Assembly: GCA_965207335.1 (NCBI GenBank)
Contig: OZ242267.1
Coordinates: forward strand, 835,729-899,728
DNA: 64,000 nucleotides
Direction: 5' to 3'
Origin: Gammaproteobacteria bacterium
Lineage (GTDB): Bacteria > Pseudomonadota > Gammaproteobacteria > PS1 > Pseudothioglobaceae
Below are positions 18,373-60,860 of this stretch, piece after piece. The position numbers and the translations under genes are program-made. The notes below the pieces were generated by a model. The model was not told the DNA's origin and ran no database searches. It worked only from the letters and a program-made list of their open reading frames with translations. Within the stretch, counting starts at the first letter, position 1. Each line of letters begins with the position of its first letter.

Positions 18373-18621
18373 ATGAAAAAAACAATAACAGCAATAACAG
18401 CGACAATATTTTTTTTAGGGACTAGTGTTATAGCACTAAGTGCTAATGCAGGTTCAAAAGAAAAATGTTATGGCATAGTAAAATCAGGACAAAATGATTG
18501 TGCTACTAAAACATCATCTTGTGTTAGTAGCTCAAAAATAGATGGGCAAAAAGATGCTTTTATCGTTGTACCTAAAGGTTTGTGCGATAAATTAGTTGGT
18601 GGAGAATTAAAATCTTCTTAA
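18373..18621 (+). CDS. bufA: DUF2282-type signal-peptide-bearing RiPP precursor (bufferin BufA-like)
   Basis: Signal peptide ending SANA, then KCYGIVKSGQNDCATKTSSCVSS..VPKGLCDKLVGG with four Cys, the DUF2282 pattern. Sits directly upstream of a DUF692 gene. Confidence 0.75.
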   Translation: MKKTITAITATIFFLGTSVIALSANAGSKEKCYGIVKSGQNDCATKTSSCVSSSKIDGQKDAFIVVPKGLCDKLVGGELKSS

Positions 18622-18640
18622 ACTTTGTTTAATTATTTAT

Positions 18641-19486: not shown

Positions 19487-20108
19487 CGATATAAAAAATC
19501 TAACAGCATCTATTAACTTGTATAATTACAATAAAGATTTTAGTGCTAAAGAATTAATATCGGTTTACCATAATAACTATATTTACACCTTAATTGATAC
19601 TTTAAAATCTAGCTATAATTGTATTTTTAGGTTGGTAGGCAACGATTTTTTTAATTATATTGCTAAAAAATATATTAAAAATAATCCCCAAAGACAGGGC
19701 TATTTACAAAATTATGGCGATAATTTTAGTAGTTTTATTGCCAGTGTGCCAGAATGCAAAAACATGCCTTATTTGGTAGATATAGCATTATTAGAAAGAT
19801 ATTATGAATTATGCTACCATAGTAATAATACTGGCTTTGATTTTGCTAAACTGCCAGTTGGATTTAGTAAAAATATTAATAAATATGATAAAATTTTACC
19901 ATTTATAAATGACTGTTATGTACTTAGTTCTAAATATCCAATACTAGATATATGGCGTTTAAATGAAAATAGTTCAAACTTAGACTTAGCAAAAAGTTGT
20001 GATAATGTATTAATTTATAAATATAATGATAGAGTTTGTGTTATTTCATTATCAAAATTAGATTATAAATTTATAAAAATTAACTATAATACAATGTTAT
20101 TAAAATGA
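19452..20108 (+). CDS. bufC: DUF2063-like partner protein (BufC-like)
   Basis: Overlaps the DUF692 gene by 35 nt. N-terminal LQQQFADDI and YHNNY motifs fit DUF2063. The position is the conserved one in DUF2282-DUF692-DUF2063 operons. Confidence 0.6.
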   Translation: MQLKKLQQQFADDIKNLTASINLYNYNKDFSAKELISVYHNNYIYTLIDTLKSSYNCIFRLVGNDFFNYIAKKYIKNNPQRQGYLQNYGDNFSSFIASVPECKNMPYLVDIALLERYYELCYHSNNTGFDFAKLPVGFSKNINKYDKILPFINDCYVLSSKYPILDIWRLNENSSNLDLAKSCDNVLIYKYNDRVCVISLSKLDYKFIKINYNTMLLK

Positions 20109-20554
20109 TAATTACAATGGCAAAATTAATAAACCTATACAATTTATTTTTTACAACACTAACTAAATATATTGAAGATATATTTTTATTGTTTTTACGC
20201 TTATATGTAGCCGATGCTTTTTTTCGCTCAGGATACATAAAATTAACCTCGTGGGATACTACTTTGTATTTATTTGAAAATGAGTATAGTGTGCCACTAC
20301 TTAATTTTCAACTAGCCGCTGTTTTAGGCACAGCAACAGAATTGATTTTACCTATATTATTAATATTTGGCTTAATAACTCGTTTTAGTGCTTTGGCTTT
20401 ATTTGTTTTTAATATTGTTGCAATATACTCTTATCCTGCTATTTGGGCCAATGGTTTTTGGGACCATAAGTTATGGGGTATTATGATGTTAGTATTAGTT
20501 ATTTACGGTTCAGGTAAGTTTGCTATTGATACTATACTGTGTAAAAAATGTTAG
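20105..20554 (+). CDS. DoxX-family integral membrane protein
   Basis: Four predicted TM helices. LRLYVADAFFRSGYIKL is DoxX-like. 4-nt overlap with the preceding gene. Confidence 0.7.
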   Translation: MIITMAKLINLYNLFFTTLTKYIEDIFLLFLRLYVADAFFRSGYIKLTSWDTTLYLFENEYSVPLLNFQLAAVLGTATELILPILLIFGLITRFSALALFVFNIVAIYSYPAIWANGFWDHKLWGIMMLVLVIYGSGKFAIDTILCKKC

Positions 20555-33644: not shown

Positions 33645-33869
33645 TTATTCTTTTTTTATATATATTACTATCTCATTATTGCTTTCAATAATTTTAGTAA
33701 TTTTATGATTATGAACACTGCACCAAGCTGGTATATCGTGAAGTACGCCTTTATCTGTTGCTAGCATTTTTATAGTATCACCTATAGCTATTGTTGTTAT
33801 TTTCTCATGTAAGCGAATAACTGGCATAGGACACAATAATTTTCGCACATCTAGGATATATTCTTGCAT
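33645..33869 (-). CDS. TusA/SirA-family sulfurtransferase-like protein
   Basis: 74 aa with the CPMP active-site motif (LLCPMPVIRL). Confidence 0.8.
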   Translation of the reverse strand: MQEYILDVRKLLCPMPVIRLHEKITTIAIGDTIKMLATDKGVLHDIPAWCSVHNHKITKIIESNNEIVIYIKKE

Positions 33870-34301
33870 AAATAAATTTGTTATATTATTTTATGAGTAG
33901 ATTTTAACACTAAATAAAACTACTACACTAAGCGATTAGGTTGGGCTTTGAGGTATTATGTATGAAACAATGCTTTTTAGATGTATATACTTTCTTGGGA
34001 GTAAATATGAGTTAAAGTTAAAGCAATTACTTAATCATTATCCCAAATAAACAACCTATTAGGCAACTGCACAAGGACTGCTTTTTATATTTAATGCGAC
34101 AGTATTCCAAATTTTATATTGTCTAGTTTAAATAATAAAACATTTGATGTATAAAAAAAAATTAATACTACTGTGCTAAGCGATAATATTGCCGTATTTT
34201 AATAATCAAACTATCATTGGATCTGCTTTTAACTGAGTGCGAAACTCCTTGTCAAATATTCTATTATTAATCATTTTATTTCCATCCTTAAATTTCATAT
34301 A

Positions 34302-34658
34302 TTATGGTTTAATACTACTTGCTGTTGTTAGTGTCCCTACCGTACTAGCAGTACCGAATGTGCCAATTGTAACACCAGCAACAGTACCTAATGTGCCAAC
34401 TGTGCAGCCAGCTGAACTTAATGAGCCAGCTGAACCTACCGTAGCACCAGCACTCAATATATTTTGCATATCTTCTTGTTTAATATTGCTATCAAAGTAA
34501 GGAATAACAACATAAAATATATCCTTACTAGATTCAACAACTTTGTATTCTAAATCCTCAAAATCAGCATCAACTAGTTTACTAAGTTGCAATTTTGGGT
34601 TTGCTTTTAATTGAGCACGAAATTTTTTATCCAATAATTTATCCATGTAATCTTCCAT
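34302..34658 (-). CDS. RiPP-precursor-like peptide: nitrile-hydratase-type (NHLP) leader plus Gly/Thr/Ser-rich core (copy 1)
   Basis: AGGAG 5 nt upstream of the ATG. Leader features NPK..DFEDLEYKVVESSKDIFYVVIP as in NHLP leaders. After ..NILSAGA comes the core TVGSAGSLSSAGCTVGTLGTVAGVTIGTFGTASTVGTLTTASSIKP. Paralog at 45701-46030. Confidence 0.65.
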   Translation of the reverse strand: MEDYMDKLLDKKFRAQLKANPKLQLSKLVDADFEDLEYKVVESSKDIFYVVIPYFDSNIKQEDMQNILSAGATVGSAGSLSSAGCTVGTLGTVAGVTIGTFGTASTVGTLTTASSIKP

Positions 34659-34752
34659 TATTACTCCTAATTATAAATTAATTTTTACTTGTAGTAATTG
34701 TAAACTGATAATACATAAAAGATTTACATTTAACATATAGTAATATAAAGTA

Positions 34753-34765
34753 TATATGTTTACAC
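34753..34765 (-). promoter_or_regulatory. Conserved upstream box GTGTAAACATATA, 94 nt before precursor copy 1
   Basis: 12 of 13 identical to GTGTAAACACATA, which sits 92 nt upstream of precursor copy 2. Confidence 0.3.
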
Positions 34766-34813
34766 TATTAAAAAAATTCTATTAAAAACATTTGATATAG
34801 CAGTGTTTAGAAC

Positions 34814-35269
34814 CTATAATAAATTATTTTTTTTTGCTTTTTCTACTGGATTTTTATCCTTAATCCACGATACAATACCATTGTCTAGGTTATAAATATT
34901 TGTATAGCCTAATTCATTTGCTAATAAGGCACTTACTTCTCTTGAGCGGTATCCATGAGCACAAACTATGGCTATTGCTTTGTGTTGAGGTATAAATTGA
35001 AATTTACTTTTAATGAGCTCTGTTTTTAGTTTTTGCTTTCTATCTTTGGTAAATGTAGTTAATAATTTACTATTTGGCAAAACACCTGTTTGTATCCATT
35101 CACTTAAATAACGCACATCAATAATAGTAACATCATTATTTTTTATAAGTTCTGATAATTCAATATTACTAACATTGGTATATAAGTTTTTACTAAACAT
35201 ATTACTAAAACTAAATGCAGAAATTACTATAATAACAATGATAGCAATAATTATATTTTTAGCATTCAT
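34814..35269 (-). CDS. Membrane-anchored or secreted rhodanese-domain protein
   Basis: N-terminal hydrophobic segment. IIDVRYLSEW and active-site loop CAHGYRS. Confidence 0.8.
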   Translation of the reverse strand: MNAKNIIIAIIVIIVISAFSFSNMFSKNLYTNVSNIELSELIKNNDVTIIDVRYLSEWIQTGVLPNSKLLTTFTKDRKQKLKTELIKSKFQFIPQHKAIAIVCAHGYRSREVSALLANELGYTNIYNLDNGIVSWIKDKNPVEKAKKNNLL

Positions 35270-40130: not shown

Positions 40131-40715
40131 CACCCATCGTCATTGCGAGGCTTTGTAAAAGGCGTGGCAATCTCGTGCTACAGTGGCAATCTCGTGCTAC
40201 AAAAACGGTGTAATTTAAAAAAGCATTAACAATAACGAATTGGAATTATGCCAACTGTTGATTTAAAAAAGTACCCATAATAGTAAGCAAAGCTTACTTT
40301 GGGGAATATCCCAAACCCCTAACGGCAATTACAGGTTATTCAGTACATATTAAGTTGCTTTGATTGTTTTTTAATTGAGGGGCAGAACTAGTTTTCATAT
40401 TACAATTCACTGTACAACTGCCCCTCAAACTCCCCATATATACATTTTGCTTGTAATTTATATTTTTGTAGTGAGATAATTCGTGGTGTGGTTTTAAAAA
40501 AGTACCCACAATAACAAGTTAGAATTATATCCACCGTCATTGCGAGCCTTGATAAAGGCGTGGCAATCTCATCTTACAAAACCCACCGTCATTGCGAGAC
40601 TTGTAAAAGGCGTGGCAATCTCGTGCTACAAAAGCAATGTAATTAGTACCAGAATATTGCCTAAGATTGCCACACACTAAAAAACAGTGTTCGCAATGAC
40701 TAGGGTACCTTTTTA
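40131..40715. repeat. Palindromic repeat module array (reverse orientation)
   Basis: Same modules as 48668-50365 on the opposite strand, e.g. TTAATTGAGGGGCAGAACTAGTTTTCATATTACAATTCACTGTACAACTGCCCCTCAAACTCCCC. Confidence 0.85.
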
Positions 40716-40718
40716 ACA

Positions 40719-43046
40719 CTAGGCATTTTTAGCCTTGTATTTAGTTTTTGACTTAGATTTTTTGATTTGTGTTATTTTGCCAGCTATGGCATCTTCACAT
40801 TCTTTTAGGCTTAGACTGTTTGGTTCTTTGTCGCCAAAAAACTTTTTAATAGTAATATTTTTTTGTCCCTTACCGCGTTTTTTGCCATTACTTATATAGG
40901 CGCCAAATCGTCCATTTAAAACCCTAATATCTGATTTATCAAAAGTTTTAATTATTAACTCTTTATCCTTTTTTTCTTTATCGGCTATTAGTTGTAGTGC
41001 TGTTTCTAGACTAACAGTTTCTGGGGTTTCTTCTTTTAATGATACATACTTCTTACCGTATTGAATATAAGGACCAAATCGTCCATAATTTGCCTTTATA
41101 GGTAGTCCATCATCAGTATTACCAACTAATCTTGGTAGTTTAAATAATTCTAATGTTTCTTCTAGGGTTATAGTCTCTAAATTTTGTCCTTTTTTCAGGC
41201 TAGCAAATATAGGTTTTTGTTCGTCGTCTTTGTCTCCTATTTGTGCAAAAGCCCCATAACGACCTAATCTAAGTGTTATATCCTTACCACTATCAGGGTC
41301 AATTCCTACTACTCTTGCATTATTCAATTCTTGTTTTGATAAATTACTAGCAAATTCTACCTGTTCATGAAACATAGTGTAAAAATCGCTTACTATCTTG
41401 TGCCAAATTTTATTTTTATTAGCTATTGCATCAAAATCAACCTCTAAATTAGCACTAAATTGATAATCAACTATATTGTTAAAGTATTTTTTTAAAAAAT
41501 CGGTTAGTAGATAGGCAACACTAGTCGGTAATAATTTATTTTTATCATTATTAAATACTTCTACTATTTTGATTGCTATAAATTTATTTTGTTTAATTTG
41601 CAATAAATTACACTCTCTTTCTACCCCATCTATATTTTCTTTTACTATGTAGCCTCGTTCTTGTACTGTTGAAATCATTGAGGCAAAAGTAGAAGGTCTT
41701 CCTATACCCATCTCTTCAATTTTTTTTACCAAACTAGCCTCAGTATAGCGAGGTTTTGGCTTGCTAAATGTTTCTTTGGCATCAAGGGTGTCAATTGTTG
41801 GGTTTTGGTTTATTTTTAACTCTGGTAGTAATTTATCTTTGCTTGTATCAAAATCATAAACCTTTAAAAATCCAGCAAATTTTAGTACCTCTCCCTCCGC
41901 TATAAAAACCTCATCTTTATTAGCAATACTAATAACTACTTTAGTTTTGTCTAATATAGCACTAGACATTTGTGATGCTAGAGTGCGTTTTCTAATTAAA
42001 TTATATAGCTTTTCTTCTTTTTCATTAGCACCTAATGAAGTTTTACTAAGGTCAGTAGGTCGTATGGCTTCGTGTGCTTCTTGAGCGGAGCTATTTTTAG
42101 TTTTATAATGGCGAGGATTAGCATAATCACTACCATATTTATTAGTTATAATACTTTTTGCACTTGCTAATGCAATATCAGATAAATTAAGCGAGTCTGT
42201 TCTCATATAAGATATATGACCATCACGATATAAATTTTGTGCTAGTGTCATAGTTTGTTTAACAGAAAAACCTAGTTTTTGTGATGCTTCTTGTTGTAAA
42301 GTAGAAGTCATAAAAGGCGGGGAAGGACTTTTTTTGCTAGGCTTAGTTTTAATATCAGTTATTTGTAGTTTAGCATTTAATAAATGCTTAACAAACTCTT
42401 CTGTTTGCTGTTTGCTTGCAAAACTTTTATTAAGTTTTACCAAAAATTTGCTATTATTGCTAATTAACTCAGCTTTGATTTTGTATGTTGTTTCTGCTTT
42501 AAAATTAGTTATTTCTTGCTCTCTTTCTACTACTAAACGCACAACTGGTGATTGCACCCTACCTGCTGATTTTGCACCAGATATTTTTCTCCATAATATT
42601 GGTGATATTTCAAAGCCAACTAAACGGTCAATAATTCTTCTTGCCTGCTGGGCATGTACCAAAGGCATATTAACGACTCTAGGATTGGTAATTGCATATT
42701 TTATAGCTGGCTTAGTTATTTCGTGAAAAACAATTCTACTAGTATCTTCTGGTAATTTTAATGCCTCTAATAAATGCCATGCTATTGATTCACCCTCTCT
42801 ATCCTCATCAGTTGCTAGATATACTTTAGTGGCTTCTTTAGCTAGTTTTTTTAGTTTACTTACTATTGATTTTTTGCTAGGGCTTATCTCATATGTAGGC
42901 TTAAAAGAGTTTTTAATATCAATGCCCATATCTTTTTTAGACATATCGCGAATGTGTCCTACACTGGACTCAACCACAAAATCATTGCCTAAAAATCCCT
43001 TAATAGTATCTGCTTTAGCAGGGGACTCTACAATTACTAATTTCAT
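40719..43046 (-). CDS. topA: DNA topoisomerase I
   Basis: Toprim MKLVIVESPAKA..ATDEDREGE, active-site region SYMRTDS, C-terminal repeats GRFGPYIQYG / GRFGAYISNG. Confidence 0.95.
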   Translation of the reverse strand: MKLVIVESPAKADTIKGFLGNDFVVESSVGHIRDMSKKDMGIDIKNSFKPTYEISPSKKSIVSKLKKLAKEATKVYLATDEDREGESIAWHLLEALKLPEDTSRIVFHEITKPAIKYAITNPRVVNMPLVHAQQARRIIDRLVGFEISPILWRKISGAKSAGRVQSPVVRLVVEREQEITNFKAETTYKIKAELISNNSKFLVKLNKSFASKQQTEEFVKHLLNAKLQITDIKTKPSKKSPSPPFMTSTLQQEASQKLGFSVKQTMTLAQNLYRDGHISYMRTDSLNLSDIALASAKSIITNKYGSDYANPRHYKTKNSSAQEAHEAIRPTDLSKTSLGANEKEEKLYNLIRKRTLASQMSSAILDKTKVVISIANKDEVFIAEGEVLKFAGFLKVYDFDTSKDKLLPELKINQNPTIDTLDAKETFSKPKPRYTEASLVKKIEEMGIGRPSTFASMISTVQERGYIVKENIDGVERECNLLQIKQNKFIAIKIVEVFNNDKNKLLPTSVAYLLTDFLKKYFNNIVDYQFSANLEVDFDAIANKNKIWHKIVSDFYTMFHEQVEFASNLSKQELNNARVVGIDPDSGKDITLRLGRYGAFAQIGDKDDEQKPIFASLKKGQNLETITLEETLELFKLPRLVGNTDDGLPIKANYGRFGPYIQYGKKYVSLKEETPETVSLETALQLIADKEKKDKELIIKTFDKSDIRVLNGRFGAYISNGKKRGKGQKNITIKKFFGDKEPNSLSLKECEDAIAGKITQIKKSKSKTKYKAKNA

Positions 43047-43052
43047 TATTGT

Positions 43053-43211
43053 GAGGCCTTTGCATAAATAGGGGTGATTAGCAAAAGTTCAATTTTTGCC
43101 GAATTAGTGATTTTATTAAACCTTGTCCTAGGGCTAAGGCTAAGTTTAATAAAATTGCTAAGTTGGTGAAAAGTGGGTTTTTGATGATTATTCATATTAT
43201 GCAAAGGTCTC
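43053..43211. mobile_element. MITE copy (subtype B interior, 159 bp)
   Basis: Termini GAGGCCTTTGCATAAATA / CATATTATGCAAAGGTCTC. Flanks ATTGT / ATTGG (4 of 5). The smg stop codon overlaps the right terminus. Confidence 0.85.
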
Positions 43212-44801: not shown

Positions 44802-45464
44802 TTACAACTCATTACGCATAGCATCAATAGTTGTCTTATAATCATCAGTATTAAAAATAGCCGAACCAGCAACAAAAGTATCAGCCCCTGCTTGTGATAT
44901 TTCTTTAATATTATCTATTTTTACCCCGCCATCTATTTCTAAGCGAATATCTAGCCCACTGTCATCAATCATTTTACGGACTTGTTTAAGTTTGTCTAAG
45001 GTAGAAGGAATAAAAGATTGTCCGCCAAAACCAGGATTAACAGACATTAATAATATCATATCCAACTTATCAAATACATGCTCTAAATACGATAATGGTG
45101 TAGCAGGATTAAAAACTAAGCCTGCCTTACAGCCTTGTTCTTTAATAAGTCCTATGGTTCTATCAATATGCTCACTAGCCTCGGGATGAAAACTTATGTA
45201 GCTAGCACCAGCTTTGGCAAAATCTGGAATAATACTATCAACAGGTTTAACCATTAAATGTACATCAATAGGGGCAGTAATACCGTGCTTTCTAAGGGCA
45301 TCACAAATAAGAGGTCCTATGGTTAAATTTGGCACATAGTGATTATCCATTACATCAAAATGCACTATATCTGCCCCAGCTAGTAAAACATTATCAACCT
45401 CACTTCCTAATTTAGCAAAATTAGCAGATAATATTGATGGTGCTATAAAATTTTTCTGTTTCAT
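44802..45464 (-). CDS. rpe: Ribulose-phosphate 3-epimerase
   Basis: [31 protein letters not shown] motifs. Confidence 0.95.
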
Positions 45465-45595: not shown

Positions 45596-45608
45596 GTGTA
45601 AACACATA
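45596..45608 (+). promoter_or_regulatory. Conserved upstream box GTGTAAACACATA, 92 nt before precursor copy 2
   Basis: 12 of 13 match, at the same spacing, to the box upstream of copy 1 (34753-34765, minus strand). Confidence 0.3.
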
Positions 45609-45700
45609 AACTATATAATAATTTTGTAAATATTTACTTATTATTAATATACTAGTGTTTAAATGTACTTAATTAACTTTTATTCTTAAGCTGGTATATT

Positions 45701-46030
45701 ATGGACAAAAAACTATCACAACAATTAATAAGCAACACTAAAATACGCAAAGAATTTATTCAAAATCCAAAGCAATTATTGCATAAATACGATAATAGAG
45801 ATTTTGATGATGTTGATATTATCGTCAAGGAAAACACACTAACTACATTTTATTTTGTTATTCCAGATTATGATAAAAAATTAGATTTATCAACTATTAA
45901 TGCTGCTAAGGCCGCATTAGGAACATTAGCTTGCATAGGAAGTGTTGGCTCGTTTGCTTGTGTAGGTGGGTGTGTGTCTTCTGTTGGTTCAATAGGAACT
46001 ACAAGCACTGCCTTGCCATCACGTTTTTAA
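45701..46030 (+). CDS. RiPP-precursor-like peptide: NHLP-type leader plus Cys/Gly/Ser-rich core (copy 2)
   Basis: Leader NPKQLL..DFDDVDIIVKENTLTTFYFVIP..INAAKA. Core ALGTLACIGSVGSFACVGGCVSSVGSIGTTSTALPSRF has three Cys. Isolated between long AT-rich spacers. Confidence 0.65.
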   Translation: MDKKLSQQLISNTKIRKEFIQNPKQLLHKYDNRDFDDVDIIVKENTLTTFYFVIPDYDKKLDLSTINAAKAALGTLACIGSVGSFACVGGCVSSVGSIGTTSTALPSRF

Positions 46031-46349: not shown

Positions 46350-48647
46350 GTGTTTAAGAAATTTATTATGCTTATTAAAATAATATCATTTTTATTTTTA
46401 TTAAATTTTGCCACAATAGTAAATGGTAATTTATTGCCAGCTAATGATGCTTTTAAATTAAGCTCAATAGTAAAAAATGACAATATAATCCTAAACTGGG
46501 ATATTGCCGATGGTTATTATCTATACAAAGAAAAAATAAAAATATCAACAAACATAATAGAGCCACTAGGCAGGATTGTCTTCCCTATTGCTAATATTAA
46601 AGATGATGAGTTTTTTGGTAGAGTTGGTATATACAGAGATAAAGTCAGCTTAGTAATTCCTGCTAATAATATTAAAACAAAGCAATTTAATTTATCGGTA
46701 AGCTATCAAGGTTGTGCTGATATAGGTGTATGCTATCCACCTATTACTAAAAATATTAAAATATCACTAGCAAAAACAAATAATAACCAAAATTCACTAG
46801 CAGACTCTGTAATTGACACTGCAAGTAATATTGTAGAAAAAATTGCCAATAATAGTACAGGGTTTTTACAAAAATTTATCAACCCAGCACAAGAAGAGCA
46901 TCCATTAAACCCAGATTTAGCCTTTAAATTTTCTATAATAGCAAAAGATGATAAAACTTTATTAGCTAAGTGGGATATTCATAAAGATTATTATTTATAC
47001 GATAATAAATTCAAATTTAGCATAAAAGGTGCTGATTATATTGATATATTGATACCAGATGGCAAAATAAAAAAAGATGAGTTCTTTGGTAGTATAGAAA
47101 CTCATAAGGGATATTTAGAGATTTTATTGCCGCTGAAAAATATTACCACTGCAAATATTACCAGCAAAATAAGCTATCAAGGCTGTTGGGAAGGTGGGGT
47201 ATGTTATCCATTACAAACAAAAACTACTAAGTTATTATTGCCTTCAAATTCTAATTCTGGAGCAAAAAATACCCAACTAGAAAACAATAATACCCCTGTA
47301 AATACTACAAAAGAAACAGCAAAAAATACCAGTTATATCTCGCCTAAGTCTGATTTAGCGGTTGGTGATTTATTTAAACAAAGTAATTTATTATTAATAC
47401 TATTAAGTTTTTTTGGTTTTGGCCTATTACTATCATTTACACCATGTATTTTTCCAATGATACCAATTTTATCTGGAATTATCGCTGGCAAAGGTGAAAG
47501 TATATCAACAAAGCGAGCATTTATTATGTCATTAGTGTTTGTTTTGGCGATGTCAGCAACCTATGCAGTAGCAGGTGTTTTGGCTGGATATTTTGGCGAA
47601 AATTTACAAATAGTACTGCAAAATAAATGGGTTATTATTACATTTAGCAGTGTTTTTGTAATTTTAGCTTTCTCAATGTTTGGTTATTTTGATATTAAAA
47701 TGCCGTCCTATTTTACTAACAAAGTAAGTAATATAAGTAATAAACAAAAATCTAATTTACTAGGTGTTGCTGTTATGGGGGTTTTATCAGCACTAATTGT
47801 TGGCCCTTGTGTTGCACCGCCTCTGGCAGGAGCATTATTATACATTGGACAAACAGGGGATTTAGTACTTGGGGGATTATCGTTATTTTTTATGGGTATT
47901 GGTATGGGCGTACCACTTTTAATTATAGGAGCAAGTGCTGGCAAACTATTACCTAAGGCAGGCTCTTGGATGGATAAAGTAAAGGCTGTTTTTGGTATTA
48001 TGATGTTGGCAGTAGCAATTTATTTACTAGATAGAATTATACCTAATATAGCATCGTTATTTTTATGGGCTAGTTTATTTACTATATCAACAGGAGCATT
48101 AGGTTTATTTAAGCCATTAAGCAAAGATTCTAGCCCATGGCATGGTATTTTTAAAACCATAGGTGCTATAATATTTATCTACGGTATATTATTATTTTTA
48201 TTAGTTGCAAAAGGCGGTGGTAATATACTGCAACCTCTGGCATCTTTTAGCATAAATAGTAATCAACAAGCCAGTAATAAACTCAAATTTACCTATGTTA
48301 AAAATCTAGCACAATTAGACGCTGTTTTATTAAGTGCTAAAGAACAAGATAAAGTAGTAATGTTAGATTTTTATGCCGATTGGTGCATATCTTGCAAGGA
48401 AATAGAAAATTGGACTTTCACCGATAAAGATGTTATAAACTCATTAGCAAATGCTATTACTATTAAAGCAGATGTCACTGAAAACAACAATGATGACAAA
48501 CAATTAATGGCTAAATTCAATATTATTGGGCCGCCAGCATTATTATTTTTTAAAGATAATGTTGAACTACGAAACAACCGCATAGTAGGCGAGATAGGGG
48601 CTAAGGATTTTATAGAAAATATGGCTAATATCAATCAAAGTTATTAG
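46350..48647 (+). CDS. dsbD: Thiol:disulfide interchange protein DsbD with two tandem N-terminal (alpha) domains
   Basis: YQGCADIGVCYPP and YQGCWEGGVCYPL (two alpha-domain Cys pairs). TM-domain motifs FTPCIFPMIP and VGPCVAPPL. C-terminal thioredoxin motif WCISC. Start may be the ATG at 46368. Confidence 0.9.
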   Translation: MFKKFIMLIKIISFLFLLNFATIVNGNLLPANDAFKLSSIVKNDNIILNWDIADGYYLYKEKIKISTNIIEPLGRIVFPIANIKDDEFFGRVGIYRDKVSLVIPANNIKTKQFNLSVSYQGCADIGVCYPPITKNIKISLAKTNNNQNSLADSVIDTASNIVEKIANNSTGFLQKFINPAQEEHPLNPDLAFKFSIIAKDDKTLLAKWDIHKDYYLYDNKFKFSIKGADYIDILIPDGKIKKDEFFGSIETHKGYLEILLPLKNITTANITSKISYQGCWEGGVCYPLQTKTTKLLLPSNSNSGAKNTQLENNNTPVNTTKETAKNTSYISPKSDLAVGDLFKQSNLLLILLSFFGFGLLLSFTPCIFPMIPILSGIIAGKGESISTKRAFIMSLVFVLAMSATYAVAGVLAGYFGENLQIVLQNKWVIITFSSVFVILAFSMFGYFDIKMPSYFTNKVSNISNKQKSNLLGVAVMGVLSALIVGPCVAPPLAGALLYIGQTGDLVLGGLSLFFMGIGMGVPLLIIGASAGKLLPKAGSWMDKVKAVFGIMMLAVAIYLLDRIIPNIASLFLWASLFTISTGALGLFKPLSKDSSPWHGIFKTIGAIIFIYGILLFLLVAKGGGNILQPLASFSINSNQQASNKLKFTYVKNLAQLDAVLLSAKEQDKVVMLDFYADWCISCKEIENWTFTDKDVINSLANAITIKADVTENNNDDKQLMAKFNIIGPPALLFFKDNVELRNNRIVGEIGAKDFIENMANINQSY

Positions 48648-48667
48648 AGACCTTAACACAAAATAAA

Positions 48668-50365
48668 CAACCTGTAATTGCTGTTAGGGGTTTGGGGATA
48701 TTCCCCAAAGTAAGCTTTGCTTACTATTAATCGCATTACAACCAACACACTGGTACCAATTATTCCCACTGTCATTGCGAACACTGCTTTTTAGTGTGTG
48801 GCAATCTCAGGCAAAATACTGGTACTAATCACACCGCTTTTATAGGATGAGATTGCCACGCTTTTTACAAAGGCTTGCAATGACGGTGGGTATAATTCTA
48901 ATTTGTTATTATGGGTGCTTTTTTTAAACCACACCACGAATTATCTCACGACAAAAATATAAATTACAAGCACAATGTATATATGGGGAGTTTGAGGGGC
49001 AGTTGTACCATAGTTGTAATGAAGGAATGAGTTCTGCCCCTCAATTAAAAAAACAATTGCTGTTAGGGGTTTGGGGATATTCCCCAAAGTAAGCTTTGCT
49101 TACTATTGTGGGTACTTTTTATATATCGTCATTGTAAGCACTGTTTTTTGTGTGTGGCAATCTCAGGCAATTATACTGTTATTAAATTACACCGCTTTTG
49201 TAGCACGAGATTGCCACGCTTTTTTACAAAAACTCGCAATGACAGTGGGTATAATTCCAATTTGTTATTGTGGGTGCTTTTTTTAAACCACACCACGAAT
49301 TATCTCACGACAAAAATATAAATTACAAGCACAATGTATATATGGGGAGTTTGAGGGGCAGTTGTACCATAGTTGTAATGAAGGAATGAGTTCTGCCCCT
49401 CAATTAAAAAAACAATTGCTGTTAGGGGTTTGGGGATATTCCCCAAAGTAAGCTTTGCTTACTATTGTGGGTACTTTTTATATATCGTCATTGTAAGCAC
49501 TGTTTTTTGTGTGTGGCAATCTCAGGCAATTATACTGTTATTAAATCACACCGCTTTTATAGGATGAGATTGCCACGCTTTTTTACAAAAGCTCGCAATG
49601 ACGGTGGGTATAATTCTAATTTGTTATTGTGGGTGCTTTTTTTAAACCACACCACGAATTATCTCACGACAAAAATATAAATTACAAGCACAATGTATAT
49701 ATGGGGAGTTTGAGGGGCAGTTGTACCATAGTTGTAATGAAGGAATGAGTTCTGCCCCTCAATTAAAAAAACAATTGCTGTTAGGGGTTTGGGGATATTC
49801 CCCAAAGTAAGCTTTGCTTACTATTGTGGGTACTTTTTATATATCGTCATTGTAAGCACTGTTTTTTGTGTGTGGCAATCTCAGGCAATTATACTGTTAT
49901 TAAATTACACCGCATTTGTAGCATGAGATTGCTACGCCTTTTACAAGTCTCGCAATGACGGTGGGTATAATTCTAACTTGTTATTGTGGGTGCTTTTTTT
50001 AAACCACACCACGAATTATCTCACGACAAAAATGTAAATTACAAGAACAATGTCTATATGGGGAGTTTGAGGGGCAGTTGTACCGTGAATTGTAATACGA
50101 AAACTTGTTCTGCCCCTCAATTAAAAAACAATAAAACAACTTAATACAAACTAAACAACCTGTAATTGCTGTTAGGGGTTTGGGGATATTCCCCAAAGTA
50201 AGCTTTGCTTACTATTTTAGGTAATTTTTTTTATATATCGTCATTGTAAGCACTGTTTTTGTGTGTGTGGTAATCTTAGGCAATTATTCCATTATTAAAT
50301 TACACCGCATTTGTAAGATGAGATTGCCACGCCTTTTATAAAGGTTAGCAATGACGGTTAGTATA
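48668..50365 (+). repeat. Largest palindromic-module array, containing a 359-bp composite unit in tandem (about 3.3 copies, 48927-50110)
   Basis: AAACCACACCACGAATTATCTCACG recurs at about 48927, 49285, 49644 and 50001. Near-identical 71-aa artefact ORFs at 49106 and 49465 are exactly 359 nt apart. Confidence 0.9.
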
Positions 50366-50934: not shown

Positions 50935-51738
50935 CAATCTTAGGCAAAATACTGGTATTAATTATATCGTGTTTGCAATATGAGATTGCCACGCCTTTTT
51001 ACAAAGTCTCGCAATGACGATATATAAAAAAAGTACCCAGAATAGTAAGCAAAGCTTACTTTGGGGAATATCCCCAAACCCCTAACAGCAATTACAAGGT
51101 GTTTAGTTTGTGTTAAGTTGTTTTATTGTTTTTTAATTGAGGGGCAGAATTAGTTCCTTCATTACAACTATGGTACAACTGCCCCTCAAACTCCCCATAT
51201 AGACATTGTGCTTGTAAGGTATATTTTTGTTGTGAGATATTAGCGGTGTGGTTTAAAAAAAGCACTAAGAATTGAGAATTGGAATAAATGCGGTGTAATT
51301 TAAAAAAGTACCCATAATAGTAAGCAAAGCTTACTTTGGGGAATATCCCCAAACCCCTAACAGCAATTACAGGTTGTTTAGTGCATATTAAGTTGTTTTA
51401 TTGTTTTTTAATTGAGGGGCAGAACTAATTCCTTCATTATAATTATTGTACAACTGCCCCTCAAACTCCCCATATAGACATTGTACTTGTAAGGTATATT
51501 TTTGTAGTGAGATATTCGCGGTGTGGTTTAAAAAAAGCACTAACAATTAATAATTAGTACCAGTATGTTGCCACACACTAAAAAAGCAGTACTTACAATG
51601 ACGATATAAAAAGTACCCAGAATAGCAAATTGGAATTACACCCACCGTCATTACGAGCCTTGATAAAGGCGTGGCAATCTCGTGCTACAAAAGCGGTGTA
51701 ATTGGCGGTAGTATGTTGTCTGAGATTGTCACACACTA
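50935..51738 (-). repeat. Palindromic-module array in inverted orientation relative to 48668-50365
   Basis: Reverse complements of the same modules, with two copies of the GAGGGGCAG hairpin module and of the CCCCAAA..AGTAAGC hairpin module. Confidence 0.9.
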
Positions 51739-51876
51739 TTAGATAAGGCAAAGGCTTTATTACTGCCTTTTAAAGATATTCCCAAGGCACAAAAATTGTT
51801 AAATACTATTAATGGGTTAAGTACTAGCAAAAATTAATTATTAGGCATTTAAAATTAATTTACAAACATAAAAAAC

Positions 51877-57752: not shown

Positions 57753-57853
57753 GATACCTTTGCATAAATAGGGGTTATTAGCAAAATGATAGATTCTGCC
57801 GAATTGGTGAAAAGTGGGTTTTTGATTATTATTCATATTTATGCACATGTCTC
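57753..57853. mobile_element. MITE copy (subtype B, internally deleted, 101 bp)
   Basis: Termini GATACCTTTGCATAAATA / TATTTATGCACATGTCTC. Flanks ACAAT / ACGAT (4 of 5). Contains the first ATG of the downstream rhodanese gene. Confidence 0.8.
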
Positions 57854-58323
57854 ACGATATGACATATAAAGAACTAGTTGCTAATGCCTTAAAAACTATA
57901 CCCGAAGTAATGCCTTGGGATTTAATAAATGAATTTAGTAGTAAAACACCACCATTACTAGTAGATGTTAGAGAGCGAAAAGAATTTAATGCTATGCAAA
58001 TCAAAAATTCTATTCACACACCAAGAGGGTTATTAGAAAGTGCTTGTGAATGGGGTTATGATGATACTGTGCCTATATTAGCTAGTAACAGGAAACAAAA
58101 TATAGTGCTTATTTGCCGTTCTGGAAAAAGAAGTGCCTTAGCAGGAATAACTATGCAACAATTAGGCTTTAAATATATTCGTTCTTTAGCCCTAGGAATC
58201 AAAGGTTGGAATGATGCTGACTTAGAATTAATTGATAGTAATAATAATATAGTTAATGCTGATGATGCAGATAAATTACTAAATAAAAGACCCAGCAAAG
58301 AAAAATTACGACCGATAAAATGA
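57841..58323 (+). CDS. Rhodanese-domain sulfurtransferase-like protein
   Basis: LVDVRERKEF and active-site loop CRSGKRS. The start may be any of three ATGs (57841, 57847, 57859). Confidence 0.8.
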   Translation: MHMSHDMTYKELVANALKTIPEVMPWDLINEFSSKTPPLLVDVRERKEFNAMQIKNSIHTPRGLLESACEWGYDDTVPILASNRKQNIVLICRSGKRSALAGITMQQLGFKYIRSLALGIKGWNDADLELIDSNNNIVNADDADKLLNKRPSKEKLRPIK

Positions 58324-58978: not shown

Positions 58979-60379
58979 TTGCAATTAGTATTATCTTCTA
59001 ATGCAAACAAAACTAATTTAGTTAATTATCTACCAGAAGACGAGTTAGCAAAACGATTAAACTTGGATGCTAAAACCCCAGAAAATGATGTTGATAGCCT
59101 TTTTCAATGGATTAAGGATTATTTAGAATATTCGTTAAATACTGAGCATCCATATTTTAATAATCGTATGTGGTCTAGTGCTAATATTCCGTCAATTTTA
59201 GGTGAGATAATTGCAGCCCTAAACAACACTTCAAATTGCACTTACGAATCAGCCCCTGTTGCTAGCTTAATGGAGAAATATATGATTCAAGAAATGCTTG
59301 CTATTGTAGGATTCAAACAAGGTGAGGGGCAAATGACAACAGGTTCTAGCAATGCTAATATGATAGCAATGATGATAGCTAGAAATAAAACTATACAAAA
59401 TGCTAAAAAACAAGGTTTATTTAATAATAAACCGTTATTTGCATTTGTTAGTGTTGATGCACATTATTCTTTTGATAAGGCTGCAAATATACTAGGCATA
59501 GGTAGTGATAACTTAATAAAAATTGCCACCAATGATAACGGGCAAATTGATATAGATGATTTAGAGAATAATATTAATAAAGTTATAAACAATAATGGTG
59601 TGCCGTTTTTTATTGGTGCTACACTAGGTACTACTGTTAAAGGTGCTTTTGATAGTATTAGTAGCTTATTAACTATTAAAAATAAATATCGGCTCTGGCT
59701 TCATGGAGATGGCGCTTGGGGCGGTGCTTGTATTGTAAATAAGAAGCTAAAAACTAAGTTTTTAAACGATATTGATAAGCTAGACTCATTTACTATGGAC
59801 TTCCATAAAATGTTAAATAGTGCCTTAATGTGTAATTTTTTATTAGTTAATTATAGGGGTTTATTAAATTACACTTGTGCTAATGGTAATACTGATTATA
59901 TTTTTCATAATAATATTGACATAGGTGTTAATTCATTACAATGTGGTCGCAGAGTTGATAGTTTAAAATGGTTTTTAGACTGGAAGTTTTTTGGCAAAAA
60001 AGGCTTTAGCACTAGAGTTACAAAATATTATAATTTAGCAATGTATGCAGAAAATATCATTAATAATAATGATAATTTAAACTTAGTAGTGCCCAGAGAA
60101 TCATTTAACTTATGCTTTAATTTTATACCTAATAACTATGATGATATAGCATATATTAATGAATTTAATCTGCAATTACGCAATAAACTATATACCCAAA
60201 AATTAAATTTATTGTCCATAGCATATATTGACAAAATATTTGTATTTAGATTACTAATAAGCAATCCAAATATGACTAAAAAAGACTTGGATAAGCTATT
60301 TGTAAATATTATTCAACAGGCAATTAATATCCTAAATACAACCCATAAAAAAGCCCTAGGTGTAGGAGAAAATTATTAA
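58979..60379 (+). CDS. PLP-dependent group II amino-acid decarboxylase (glutamate / cysteine-sulfinate decarboxylase-like)
   Basis: HPYFNNRMW, NCTYESAPVASLME, TGSSNANM and the PLP-lysine region DFHKM. TTG is the first conventional in-frame start. Confidence 0.8.
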   Translation: MQLVLSSNANKTNLVNYLPEDELAKRLNLDAKTPENDVDSLFQWIKDYLEYSLNTEHPYFNNRMWSSANIPSILGEIIAALNNTSNCTYESAPVASLMEKYMIQEMLAIVGFKQGEGQMTTGSSNANMIAMMIARNKTIQNAKKQGLFNNKPLFAFVSVDAHYSFDKAANILGIGSDNLIKIATNDNGQIDIDDLENNINKVINNNGVPFFIGATLGTTVKGAFDSISSLLTIKNKYRLWLHGDGAWGGACIVNKKLKTKFLNDIDKLDSFTMDFHKMLNSALMCNFLLVNYRGLLNYTCANGNTDYIFHNNIDIGVNSLQCGRRVDSLKWFLDWKFFGKKGFSTRVTKYYNLAMYAENIINNNDNLNLVVPRESFNLCFNFIPNNYDDIAYINEFNLQLRNKLYTQKLNLLSIAYIDKIFVFRLLISNPNMTKKDLDKLFVNIIQQAINILNTTHKKALGVGENY

Positions 60380-60443
60380 TAGTATAATTAGTAAAAATAT
60401 AGCCCTTGATAAAAATATAGTAGAGTTTCCAGAGCTACATAGT

Positions 60444-60860
60444 TTGTTAAAAAATAATAATTATAATGATGCTGTAAGTGTAATAAAAAAAATTAGCCAC
60501 AATATAAAAACAGAGGATTTTGAATTAGTAAAAAATTCGTATATTCGTTATATAATCAGCAATACTGATGATTATTGGCTTTCAATATTAAAATGGGATA
60601 AGGGAGTCAAAACATCAATCCATGGACATCCACAACAATCTTTTTTGTATGTATTAGATGGAGAATTTACCATAAATAATTATAAAAGCGATACATCCTT
60701 AATTAGTAGTAAAATATCAAAAACAGGTTATTATTACCACTGTAATGGCAAAGTTAATAGGTTAGATAATTGCATACACAGAATGGAATCTAATATAGAA
60801 TGCTTAAGTTTGCATTTTTATTCTGATGACCCTAGAAAAGGCATAGTGTTTAGTAGTTAA
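60444..60860 (+). CDS. Cupin protein resembling bacterial cysteine dioxygenase type I
   Basis: WDKGVKTSIHGHPQQSFLYVLDGEF matches the CDO W-x-x-G-x-x-T/S-x-I-H-x-H cupin motif, with a later IHRM. TTG start uncertain. Confidence 0.55.
   Translation: MLKNNNYNDAVSVIKKISHNIKTEDFELVKNSYIRYIISNTDDYWLSILKWDKGVKTSIHGHPQQSFLYVLDGEFTINNYKSDTSLISSKISKTGYYYHCNGKVNRLDNCIHRMESNIECLSLHFYSDDPRKGIVFSS

What the first reader, a model, noticed from the sequence alone, without database searches (positions are those of the whole stretch)
45701..46030. Second NHLP-leader precursor paralog with a three-cysteine core, next to dsbD
The leader architecture matches copy 1 (NPKQLL..DFDDVDIIVKENTLTTFYFVIP..INAAKA). The core is ALGTLACIGSVGSFACVGGCVSSVGSIGTTSTALPSRF. 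It shares the [ST]VG[ST] theme with copy 1 but adds three Cys and an internal GG. The leaders are clearly homologous while the cores have diverged, the pattern expected for RiPP precursor families that share one maturation machinery. The gene is isolated by ~235-bp and ~320-bp AT-rich spacers between rpe and dsbD.
Basis: partly seen in the sequence, partly recalled or inferred. Interest (0 to 1): 0.65.

Follow-up and report, generated by a model that had tools for sequence, protein, structure and literature searches.

The report
Orphan azole-type RiPP precursor paralog
This small gene is real and encodes one of at least 14 scattered copies of a peptide precursor (a folded leader plus a Ser/Thr/Cys-Gly repeat tail) whose relatives in other bacteria sit beside enzymes that turn such tails into ring-rich natural products. 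It is a new member of a known kind, not a new kind.

Summary
The ORF at 45701-46030 (+) exists exactly as described: 109 aa, three Cys in the tail, and 236-bp and 319-bp AT-rich spacers between rpe and dsbD. Its paralog is at 34302-34658 (-). Both belong to a family of about 110-aa proteins with 175 profile hits. Each has a nitrile-hydratase-like (NHLP) leader and a roughly 40-aa core of period-3 x-Gly-[Ser/Thr/Cys] repeats. Family members in other organisms lie beside a YcaO cyclodehydratase and a PoyD-type radical-SAM epimerase. One of those loci also carries a SagB dehydrogenase and a LanM-like dehydratase. A 2023 paper on dehydrazoles lists three precursors of the same AT-rich subfamily inside such a cluster of an uncultured Candidatus Thioglobus. 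The most likely reading is a precursor of an azol(in)e-containing proteusin, with ten candidate ring positions every third residue. New here: the source genome (1.97 Mb) holds at least 14 paralogs, and a related 1.52-Mb MAG holds at least 25. In the AT-rich (28-32% GC) loci these lie among housekeeping genes with no enzymes nearby, behind a conserved upstream DNA element. I could not test whether this genome carries the enzymes. The dsbD link is only suggestive.

The parts
45596..45617 (+). Conserved upstream element GTGTAAACACATAAACTATATA, ending 83 nt before the ATG. Probably a regulator site or promoter element shared by the precursor paralogs.
   Evidence: The pattern GTGTAANNAYATAWASTNTATA with up to 2 mismatches matches only twice in the 64-kb window, once upstream of each paralog; 0.06 matches are expected by chance. 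The same or a variant element lies 75-105 nt upstream of precursor genes in L004, L005, L006 (twice) and L008, and 228 nt upstream in L002, where a tandem repeat intervenes.
45624..45653 (+). Predicted sigma-70-like promoter: -35 TTGTAA (45624-45629), 18-nt spacer, -10 TATACT (45648-45653).
   Evidence: This is a consensus scan only, and such matches are not enriched in this AT-rich region. The (T)GTAAA box is conserved at the same offset from the upstream element in the aligned paralog upstream regions. The promoter is inferred, and there are no RNA data.
45701..45907 (+). Leader, residues 1-69 (MDKK...STINAA): a folded NHLP-type domain.
   Evidence: TIGR03793 E 2.5e-6. The family profile hits nitrile hydratase alpha and NHLP precursor structures. 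The AlphaFold2 model has pLDDT 86-95 over residues 1-50.
45908..46027 (+). Core, residues 70-109 (KAALGTLACIGSVGSFACVGGCVSSVGSIGTTSTALPSRF). It has ten Ser/Thr/Cys at period 3 (T75 C78 S81 S84 C87 | C91 S94 S97 T100 T103), with a one-residue register shift at G89-G90.
   Evidence: In the target, Ser/Thr/Cys recur at lag 3 with frequency 0.62 against 0.35 expected. In 185 family cores, Ser/Thr recur at lag 3 with 0.66 against 0.39, and Gly with 0.44 against 0.19. The core is modelled as disordered, pLDDT below 50. Its GC is 47% in a 30% GC genome.
46028..46030 (+). Stop codon TAA.
34302..34658 (-). Paralog 'copy 1' (118 aa, one Cys in the core), lying between a rhodanese gene (34814-35269) and a TusA gene (33645-33869).
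   Evidence: tblastn E 6e-12; Pfam for the neighbours; NCBIfam. An AGGAG Shine-Dalgarno sequence lies 6 nt upstream.
34744..34765 (-). The same conserved upstream element in front of copy 1 (GTGTAAACATATATACTTTATA), ending 85 nt before its ATG.

Best explanation
The gene encodes a precursor peptide of the NHLP/proteusin type. Residues 1-69 form a small folded leader domain that docks onto maturation enzymes. Residues 70-109 are a disordered core in which every third residue is Ser, Thr or Cys, usually preceded by Gly or Ala. By homology, the cognate machinery is a leader-binding C-protein plus a SagD-type YcaO cyclodehydratase, which converts Cys/Ser/Thr into thiazoline/(methyl)oxazoline rings. 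This works together with a PoyD-type radical-SAM epimerase. In some lineages there is also a SagB dehydrogenase (azoline to azole), a LanM-like 'LanMbC' dehydratase (Ser before an azole to dehydroalanine), AspH/LpxO-like hydroxylases and an NlpC/P60 or other peptidase that removes the leader. The predicted product of this gene is a roughly 40-residue linear poly-azol(in)e peptide with up to ten rings at period 3, three of them sulfur-containing. The three Cys occupy the same periodic positions as Ser/Thr in paralogs. The gene is one of at least 14 precursor genes in the genome that lie away from any enzyme gene seen. Each precursor gene or array appears to be driven from a shared upstream element, so one distal enzyme set would process a library of cores, as in the prochlorosin system. 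What is shown: the ORF, its family membership, the NHLP homology, the periodic core, the enzyme association of relatives, the paralog number and the shared upstream element. What is inferred: that this genome has the enzymes, which residues are modified, the cleavage site, and expression.
For: Family: there are 87 representatives at E<1e-3 with the same architecture and 175 profile hits.

NHLP homology. The model shows a folded leader and a disordered core. The best Foldseek hit is the NMR structure of a proteusin precursor, 8tb1, but it is not significant.

Enzyme association:
- In L003, family members P0131, P0155 and P0159 lie directly downstream of a TOMM C-protein, a SagD YcaO, a PoyD rSAM, a SagB dehydrogenase and a split LanM-like DUF4135 protein.
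- In L009, three family members lie beside PoyD, a fused C-protein/YcaO, two AspH-like hydroxylases and an NlpC/P60. One is P0029 and another is P0167; both have the same 'NAAK' junction as the target.
- Besides L003 itself (contig 31824), precursor hits and LanM-like hits share four contig lengths: 1330041, 4154676, 80989 and 260171.

Literature: PMC10676384 Suppl. Fig. 21 lists precursors A1-A3 of an uncultured Ca. Thioglobus LanMbC+YcaO cluster. They match the target (BLASTP E 2e-9) and the family profile (hhalign 99%, E 5e-18). They are 35-45% identical to family members, including paralogs of this genome.

Core chemistry: the period-3 Ser/Thr/Cys pattern with Gly at -1 fits YcaO substrates. 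44 of 185 cores have no Cys, so the shared chemistry cannot depend on Cys.

Library behaviour: there are at least 14 paralogs on the 1,968,149-bp contig and at least 25 in MAG OZ244964.1. Young paralog pairs keep the leader (68-88% identity) while the cores drop to background (28-42%).

Shared upstream element.
Against: No YcaO, rSAM, SagB or LanM-like gene is in the 64-kb window. A tblastn with the L003 enzymes found none in the window or in loci L001-L006. The same search with the L009 enzymes found none in the window or in L001, L002, L004-L008 or L011. The six AT-rich (28-32% GC) precursor loci L002, L004, L005, L006, L008 and L011 also show none in their gene tables. In this lineage the enzyme link therefore rests on homology and on one published Thioglobus cluster.

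The source genome could not be searched. It is absent from the genome collection and from the gene-position index. The search with the LanM-like enzyme reached only relatives of at least 48% identity.

The junction is AA, not GG. The target's Shine-Dalgarno sequence is weak (AAGCTGG), whereas paralogs have AGGAG or AAGGA. No RNA data were found.

The target has only two Ser-[Ser/Thr/Cys] dipeptides against a family mean of 4.3, so the LanMbC-type dehydration step may contribute little here.
Confidence: 0.7

Rival explanations
1. It is a prochlorosin-like class II lanthipeptide precursor. A distal LanM/ProcM dehydrates Ser/Thr and the three Cys form thioether rings.
For: NHLP leaders serve ProcM-type systems (established knowledge). 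The target has three Cys and many Ser/Thr. The precursors are scattered as in the prochlorosin system. A LanM-like DUF4135 protein is present in L003.
Against: 44 of 185 family cores have no Cys and 85 have only one, so thioether formation cannot be the family's common chemistry. The LanM-like proteins found with this family are about 830-865 aa, which fits the LanMbC type whose cyclase-like domain lacks the zinc site (PMC10676384). The L009 cluster has YcaO and PoyD but no LanM-like gene. Cys sits at the same period-3 positions as Ser/Thr, which fits interchangeable cyclodehydration sites.
Confidence: 0.1
2. It is not (or no longer) a RiPP precursor in this lineage. The small NHLP-domain proteins with Ser/Thr/Gly tails act unmodified or with another partner, for example as a secreted, surface or redox-related factor. 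The enzyme cluster is absent from these reduced AT-rich genomes.
For: None of the six AT-rich (28-32% GC) precursor loci examined (L002, L004, L005, L006, L008, L011) nor the window has a RiPP enzyme. The same is true of L001 and L007 (43-44% GC). Neighbours are often thiol- or sulfur-transfer genes: dsbD, rhodanese, TusA, thioredoxins and gshB. The paralog number is very large for 1.5-2 Mb genomes.
Against: There is clear homology to precursors embedded in clusters, including AT-rich Thioglobus ones. The strict period-3 heteroatom pattern and the junction motif are conserved, which is what enzymes would select for. Scattered precursors with a single distant enzyme have a precedent in the prochlorosins. 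Only about 190 kb of non-window sequence from these genomes was seen.
Confidence: 0.15
3. It is a thiopeptide (thiocillin-family) precursor, as the NCBIfam hit above the curated cut-off would suggest.
For: NF033482 RiPP_thiocil scores 36.8 bits (cut-off 25) on residues 69-100 of the target, and 30.1 bits on copy 1.
Against: The match covers only the Ser/Thr/Cys/Gly-rich part of a 48-position model and is compositional. The protein is 109 aa with a 69-aa NHLP leader, whereas the model describes a precursor of about 48 positions in all. The same model also hits the L009 and L003 precursors, which sit in YcaO/PoyD clusters and not in thiopeptide clusters.
Confidence: 0.02
4. It is a chance ORF or a decaying pseudogene in an AT-rich spacer.
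For: The Shine-Dalgarno sequence is weak and no expression data exist.
Against: The 109-codon frame is intact and the profile E-value is 6e-28. The conserved upstream element is present. The sequence is identical in two independent sequencing runs.
Confidence: 0.02

Closest known systems
Dehydrazole precursors: CcaA of carnazolamide, and precursors A1-A3 of the uncultured Candidatus Thioglobus LanMbC+YcaO cluster (PMC10676384, main text and Suppl. Fig. 21)
   Same: They share an NHLP-type leader of about 65-70 aa and a Ser/Thr/Cys/Gly-rich core. Thioglobus A1-A3 share the AT-rich subfamily's motifs (DK.FR..L..(N/D)P...VKV...TK...Y..AAG junction, [ST]xG[ST] core). BLASTP to the target gives E 2e-9, and hhalign to the family profile gives 99%. 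The L003 cluster has the same enzyme set as cca: YcaO, SagB-type dehydrogenase, PoyD-type rSAM and a DUF4135 dehydratase.
   Different: The target lies away from any enzyme gene and is one of at least 14 paralogs in the genome. Its junction is AA-K rather than AAG. It has few Ser-azole-forming dipeptides (2). I could not compare it with the CcaA sequence itself, which is not in the text held. No product has been characterised for any member of this AT-rich subfamily.
Prochlorosins (ProcA/ProcM of Prochlorococcus and Synechococcus)
   Same: Many precursor genes with long NHLP/Nif11-type leaders and hypervariable cores are scattered in a small genome and presumably served by one promiscuous enzyme system. 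Young paralogs keep the leader and randomise the core.
   Different: The chemistry is different: prochlorosins need Cys for thioether rings, but 44 of 185 cores here have none. The leaders here are themselves divergent (mean 34-36% identity within a genome), whereas, from my own knowledge, ProcA leaders are well conserved. The associated enzymes in relatives are YcaO and PoyD, not ProcM.
Sponge-derived srp proteusins and other azole-containing proteusins such as nostatin A (PMC10858898, PMC11583998, PMC9426513)
   Same: They have NHLP leaders that fold as small proteins, YcaO-made azoles and PoyD-type epimerases. The solved srp-type precursor 8tb1 is hit by the family profile at E 5e-6.
   Different: No halogenase or sactionine-type enzymes were seen with this family. 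The core here is a regular period-3 repeat rather than a short unique sequence.
[quoted passage not shown]
   Same: The heterocyclisable residue recurs every third position, and a SagD-type YcaO with a C-protein is present in relatives. The comparison with heterocycloanthracin rests on my own knowledge and was not tested here.
   Different: The leader type is different (NHLP, not the sonorensin/heterocycloanthracin leader). Ser/Thr dominate instead of Cys, and a PoyD epimerase is associated.

Membership tests
NHLP leader peptide family RiPP precursors (TIGR03793; nitrile-hydratase-alpha-like leader) | An N-terminal domain of about 70 aa homologous to the C-terminal part of nitrile hydratase alpha | tested here: met
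   The single sequence scores TIGR03793 27.3 bits, E 2.5e-6, below the curated 50.9-bit cut-off, and Pfam NHase_alpha E 0.1. The profile of 80 relatives hits nitrile hydratase alpha chains at E 8e-11 to 1e-9, and the NHLP precursors 8tb1 (E 5e-6) and 9cjx (E 0.03). The feature is met at family level and is sub-threshold for the single sequence.
NHLP leader peptide family RiPP precursors (TIGR03793; nitrile-hydratase-alpha-like leader) | The leader ends in a double-glycine-type cleavage motif (hydrophobic residues at -7 and -4, GG/GA at -2/-1) | tested here: inconclusive
   L63 and I66 occupy -7 and -4, but -2/-1 are Ala-Ala. Across the family the pair is AA in 98, AG in 34 and GG in 25 of 185 sequences. 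Whether AA is cleaved, and by which peptidase, is unknown.
NHLP leader peptide family RiPP precursors (TIGR03793; nitrile-hydratase-alpha-like leader) | Encoded with, or served by, a RiPP maturation enzyme (YcaO, rSAM or LanM) | not testable with these tools
   None is in the window. The rest of the 1.97-Mb genome could not be fetched. The feature is met for the relatives L003 and L009 and for the published Thioglobus cluster.
Proteusins (NHLP precursor plus PoyD-type radical-SAM epimerase) | A PoyD-family epimerase (TIGR04517) acts on the precursor | not testable with these tools
   Relatives have it: L003 scores 311.7 bits and L009 scores 274.2 bits to TIGR04517, both just under the 325-bit cut-off. 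Its presence in this genome is unknown.
Dehydrazoles (YcaO azoles plus LanMbC dehydration of Ser preceding an azole; PMC10676384) | Co-occurrence of a YcaO/dehydrogenase pair and a DUF4135 'LanMbC' with an NHLP precursor whose core is rich in Ser/Thr/Cys | not testable with these tools
   The core composition fits: 14 of 40 residues are Ser/Thr/Cys. The enzyme set is seen in L003 and is published for Ca. Thioglobus. L009 lacks the LanM-like gene, so the family is not uniformly of the dehydrazole type. Nothing is known for this genome.
Dehydrazoles (YcaO azoles plus LanMbC dehydration of Ser preceding an azole; PMC10676384) | Ser-[Cys/Ser/Thr] dipeptides that can become Dha-azole units | tested here: met
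   The feature is present but sparse: two such dipeptides (S93-S94, S102-T103) against a family mean of 4.3. Most periodic positions are preceded by Gly or Ala.
Thiocillin-family RiPP (NF033482) | A short precursor, about 50 aa in all, with a short leader and a Ser/Cys-rich core for a thiopeptide synthase set | tested here: not met
   The HMM score of 36.8 bits exceeds the 25-bit cut-off, but the match covers only model positions 15-46 on residues 69-100. The protein has a 69-aa NHLP leader. The same model also hits precursors in YcaO/PoyD clusters, so the match is compositional.
Prochlorosin-type class II lanthipeptide precursors | Cys in the core paired with dehydratable Ser/Thr, and a ProcM-type LanM with a zinc cyclase domain | tested here: not met
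   This was tested at family level: 44 of 185 cores lack Cys. The target itself has three Cys, so it cannot be excluded individually. No LanM is in the window.

The most novel reading that the evidence does not exclude
An uncultured, repeat-laden, AT-rich gammaproteobacterial lineage (this 1.97-Mb genome and the 1.52-Mb MAG OZ244964.1) runs a prochlorosin-style combinatorial library with azol(in)e/proteusin chemistry instead of lanthionine chemistry. Under this reading, 14 to more than 25 precursor genes lie away from the enzyme genes. Their leaders have diverged to about 35% identity yet stay recognisable as a folded domain. All are wired to one conserved upstream operator/promoter element and processed by a single distal YcaO/PoyD machinery. 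A functional tie to periplasmic or cytoplasmic thiol and sulfur-transfer systems is possible.
Probability: 0.45. Interest if true: 0.65.

Novelty: new member of a known kind. Interest (0 to 1): 0.45.

Why it matters
For annotation: genes like this one are unnamed in the protein collection searched (no name for any of the 14 paralogs). NCBIfam would mislabel them 'thiocillin family RiPP'. They should be called NHLP/proteusin-type precursors of the YcaO/PoyD class.

For biology: if the enzymes are present, small symbiont-like genomes of 1.5-2 Mb spend dozens of genes on a peptide library with a shared regulatory element. That would be a second, chemically different example of the prochlorosin strategy. 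It would also give a tractable set of natural substrates for studying how a YcaO system recognises folded leaders that are only about 35% identical.

The period-3 Gly-[Ser/Thr/Cys] core predicts a regular poly-azol(in)e backbone whose function is unknown; carnazolamide showed no activity in the published assays.

Tried and rejected
1. Finding the source genome or its paralog loci. Exact look-ups of the target and of P0001, P0002 and P0089 found nothing on record. The genome-contig scan returned only the related MAG. The enzymes of this genome therefore could not be sought.

2. Alignments A1-A3 were too variable for the search for related loci. A4 worked.

3. The last protein search used the L003 LanM-like enzyme. 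It retrieved only relatives of at least 48% identity, apart from one weak outlier at 36%, because only the 8000 candidates sharing most words were scored. No hit came from the 1,968,149-bp or 1,517,709-bp contigs. This is not evidence of absence.

4. Six look-ups hit precursor loci of low or moderate GC: four in the MAG (L002, L008, L011) or in AT-rich L004, and two in the 43-44% GC contigs L001 and L007. All returned arrays or single genes without enzymes.

5. The metagenome scan with the YcaO alignment returned 68 loci. Most had about 61% GC and no family precursors, and none was AT-rich.

6. The viral contig scan found no relatives.

7. Organism naming failed. Conserved proteins of the window form singleton clusters without names, and run labels are coded.

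8. No RNA run was identified. The two runs holding the locus are of unknown kind and show no variation in the ORF.

9. Rfam and tRNA scans of the window found nothing.

10. The promoter/terminator consensus scan is uninformative by count in this AT-rich spacer (12 found against 10.5 expected). The one 'terminator' lies inside the ORF.

11. Foldseek against the PDB gave no significant hit (best 8tb1, E 5.7).

12. I considered the MbnB/DUF692 enzyme at 18641-19486 as a modifier and rejected it. It has its own DUF2282 precursor with a signal peptide directly upstream.
Full report
**1. Observation**

It lies between rpe (44802-45464, minus strand) and dsbD (46350-48647, plus strand), both confirmed by Pfam. 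The flanking spacers are 236 bp (18% GC) and 319 bp (21% GC), in a window of 30% GC.

The tail has three Cys, an internal GG and three [ST]xG[ST] units. tblastn finds exactly one paralog in the window, 34302-34658 (-), at 34.5% identity and E 6e-12.

**2. What the protein is**

The exhaustive HMMER search found 87 cluster representatives at E<1e-3. Nearly all are 95-130 aa and align over the whole length. A profile of 80 of them (A1) retrieved 175 proteins.

All share one architecture. The N-terminal part carries conserved positions (R16, P23, Y51; motifs DK.FR..L..NPK and [DE].[ED]..V...[TS]K...Y.V.P). A junction L-x-x-I-x-A-A follows. The tail of about 44 residues is made of Ser 23%, Gly 18%, Thr 15% and Ala 14%.

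The leader is NHLP-type. The single sequence is sub-threshold (TIGR03793 27.3 bits against a 50.9-bit cut-off, E 2.5e-6). The family profile hits nitrile hydratase alpha chains in the PDB (E 8e-11) and two solved 'NHLP leader peptide family natural product' chains (8tb1 at E 5e-6, 9cjx at E 0.03).

AlphaFold2 with the family alignment gives a confident N-terminal domain (pLDDT 86-95 for residues 1-50) and a disordered tail (below 50 from residue 69). Foldseek's best PDB match is the proteusin precursor 8tb1, but it is not significant.

**3. The core is a period-3 repeat**

In 185 family cores, Gly recurs at lag 3 with frequency 0.44 (0.19 expected). Ser/Thr recur at lag 3 with frequency 0.66 (0.39 expected). 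The same holds at lags 6 and 9.

In the target, the heteroatom residues are T75, C78, S81, S84, C87, then C91, S94, S97, T100, T103. That is ten positions at strict period 3, with one register shift at G89-G90. The three Cys therefore sit where paralogs have Ser/Thr.

Cys per core across the family is 0 in 44 sequences, 1 in 85, 2 in 37, 3 in 17 and 4 in 2. The common chemistry of the family therefore cannot require Cys. This argues against lanthionine rings and for a modification that accepts Cys, Ser and Thr alike.

**4. Enzyme association in relatives**

L003 (71% GC) carries, in order:
- a TOMM leader-binding C-protein (TIGR03882);
- a SagD-type YcaO (217.7 bits);
- a PoyD-type rSAM epimerase (311.7 bits);
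- a SagB dehydrogenase;
- a split LanM-like DUF4135 protein;
- four NHLP precursor genes, three of which are family hits P0131, P0155 and P0159;
- an AspH-like hydroxylase and an NlpC/P60.

L009 (41% GC, assembly GCA_013572995.1) carries a PoyD-like rSAM and three family precursors. Two of these, P0029 and P0167, have the target's 'NAAK' junction. It also carries two AspH/LpxO-like hydroxylases, an NlpC/P60, a conserved unknown protein and a fused C-protein/YcaO of 756 aa.

Precursor hits and LanM-like hits share four further contig lengths (1330041, 4154676, 80989 and 260171).

The published dehydrazole study (PMC10676384) characterised such a set of enzymes: a YcaO, a dehydrogenase, a 'LanMbC' that dehydrates Ser preceding an azole, and a PoyD-like epimerase. 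It notes a cluster from an uncultured Ca. Thioglobus with several precursors. Its Supplementary Figure 21 prints those precursors.

Thioglobus A1-A3 are clearly of the same AT-rich subfamily as the target. BLASTP gives E 2e-9. hhalign of A3 against the family profile gives 99% probability, E 5e-18. They are 35-45% identical to family members, including P0096 and P0100 of the window's own genome. One hit (P0003) is itself annotated as from an uncultured Ca. Thioglobus.

**5. Genomic organisation in the AT-rich lineage**

P0001 and P0043, the two window proteins, sit on a contig of 1,968,149 bp. Twelve more family hits have that same single contig length, so the genome holds at least 14 paralogs.

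A 1,517,709-bp chromosome, OZ244964.1 'MAG: Gammaproteobacteria bacterium', holds at least 25. Seventeen of these lie in five loci that I read: L002 (3), L005 (3), L006 (7), L008 (1) and L011 (3). At least eight more hits lie elsewhere. Other contigs carry arrays of 4 (L001) and 7 (L007).

None of these loci, nor the window, contains a homolog of the L003 or L009 enzymes.

Within a genome, young paralog pairs keep 68-88% leader identity. Their cores fall to 28-42%, which is the background for this composition. The target and copy 1 are an old pair, with leader 34% and core 25% identity.

However, the leaders are much more divergent, and the associated chemistry in relatives is YcaO/PoyD.

**6. 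A shared upstream element (new)**

Comparing the regions upstream of precursor genes revealed the element GTGTAAAC-A.AT-AAAC-T.TATA.

The derived pattern, with up to two mismatches, occurs only twice in the 64-kb window. One copy ends 83 nt before the target's ATG and the other ends 85 nt before copy 1's ATG. Chance expectation is 0.06. Because the pattern was derived partly from these two sites, the independent support comes from other loci:
- exact matches upstream of the arrays in L002 and L006;
- near matches upstream of L005, of a second gene in L006, of every copy of the closest homolog P0101 in L004, and of P0016 in L008.

The element ends 75-105 nt before the ATG in all of these except L002, where a tandem repeat intervenes and the distance is 228 nt.

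A conserved (T)GTAAA box follows 6-8 nt downstream. In the target it coincides with the -35 of a predicted TTGTAA-18-TATACT promoter.

I read this as a dedicated regulator site next to a weak sigma-70 promoter. That is inference; no RNA data were available.

The target's Shine-Dalgarno sequence is weaker than those of its paralogs.

**7. Mechanism proposed**

The leader (1-69) docks as a folded domain on the C-protein/YcaO and partner enzymes. Cys/Ser/Thr at the periodic positions, mostly preceded by Gly or Ala, are cyclodehydrated to azolines and possibly oxidised to azoles. A PoyD-type enzyme may epimerise selected residues. A LanMbC, if present, could dehydrate S93 and S102. The leader is then removed near A68-A69.

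The shown and inferred steps are separated in the Best explanation section. Confidence is 0.7 that the gene is a precursor for YcaO-type chemistry. The exact ring count is a prediction.

**8. The dsbD question**

Directly adjacent genes are thiol- or sulfur-related at five of nine loci (each an array or a single precursor gene):
- the target (dsbD);
- copy 1 (rhodanese and TusA);
- L002 (gshB);
- L006 (a thioredoxin-like protein, with DsbC nearby);
- L008 (thioredoxin).

That is 6 of 18 flanking genes. The window itself has about 9% such genes: dsbD, two rhodaneses, TusA and DsrC. At that background the binomial P is about 0.004. The categories were chosen after looking, so I treat this as a lead and not a result.

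**9. Limits**

The source genome is absent from the searchable genome collection and from the gene-position index. Conserved proteins of the window have no relatives at 90% identity or more. Two sequencing runs carry the locus almost unchanged. Orthology and synteny in close relatives, and the presence of the enzymes, therefore remain open.

**10. Verdict**

The gene can be placed more precisely as a member of the Gly-[Ser/Thr/Cys] repeat subfamily of NHLP/proteusin precursors, which is tied to YcaO/PoyD (and sometimes SagB/LanMbC) clusters. For the gene itself this is a new member of a known kind. The size of the paralog set and the shared upstream element are the parts worth following.

Noticed in passing
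window 18373-20554 (+): This is a complete bufferin-type RiPP operon. It has a DUF2282 precursor with a signal peptide and 4 Cys (18373-18621), an MbnB/DUF692 enzyme (18641-19486), DUF2063 (19452-20108) and DoxX (20105-20554). A YHS-domain protein lies upstream (family described in PMC11626156). It is a second, unrelated RiPP system in the same window.
   Followed up: partly
window 43050-43200, 48650-50200, 51027-51750, 40160-40720: Short repeated elements lie here, including a 359-bp tandem array (3.8 copies, 48771-50132) and a 275-bp one. In run X1 their assembler depth is 16,000-44,000 against about 180 for unique sequence. That suggests roughly 100-250 copies per genome, a very repeat-laden small genome.
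   Followed up: partly
window 45701-46030 and 34302-34658: NCBIfam NF033482 'thiocillin family RiPP' scores above its curated cut-off on both paralogs (36.8 and 30.1 bits against 25), purely through the Ser/Thr/Cys/Gly composition of the core. Automatic annotation would probably misname these genes.
   Followed up: yes
window 46350-48647: DsbD is 765 aa and carries two N-terminal DsbD_N (alpha) domains instead of one, as two matched stretches of PF11412.
   Followed up: no
window 33645-35269; L002 8024-8962; L006 13246-13761 and 17222-17926; L008 10411-10779: Precursor genes or arrays are often directly flanked by thiol- or sulfur-transfer genes: TusA, rhodanese, gshB, thioredoxin-like proteins and DsbC. 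The count is 6 of 18 flanking genes, assessed post hoc.
   Followed up: partly
L006 13246-18429: The seven-gene precursor array of the MAG is followed by a thioredoxin-like protein, a TolC-like outer-membrane efflux protein, an unassigned 170-aa protein, pepA, DsbC and a CPBP/Rce1-like intramembrane protease. From my own knowledge, CPBP proteases are often linked to bacteriocin immunity. These could be export or immunity components.
   Followed up: no
window 58979-60860: A PLP-dependent decarboxylase (PF00282) lies next to a cysteine-dioxygenase-like cupin (PF05995), with a rhodanese just upstream (57841-58323). This could be a cysteine-to-hypotaurine/taurine route.
   Followed up: no
L004 (ena ERZ25766962 ctg15993_1x_c, 24.7 kb): The closest homolog of the target (P0101, 42% identity, three Cys) sits on a '1x, circular' contig. 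The contig is made of 6-kb units that repeat the precursor, a DDE transposase and small ORFs. It is probably a long-read assembly artefact or a real tandem amplification.
   Followed up: no
L016 (JACCDX010706735.1) and L009/L012 (JACCDX011703740.1): The same assembly (GCA_013572995.1) holds a second fused C-protein/YcaO, 37% identical to the first, on another contig. No family precursor lies within the 14 kb read there. This echoes the 'two YcaO pairs' noted for the Thioglobus cluster.
   Followed up: no
L011 1-11078 (end of MAG chromosome record): One three-gene precursor array lies beside an integrase/TraG-type integrative element and a truncated EPSP synthase fragment. This hints that some arrays move with mobile DNA.
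   Followed up: no
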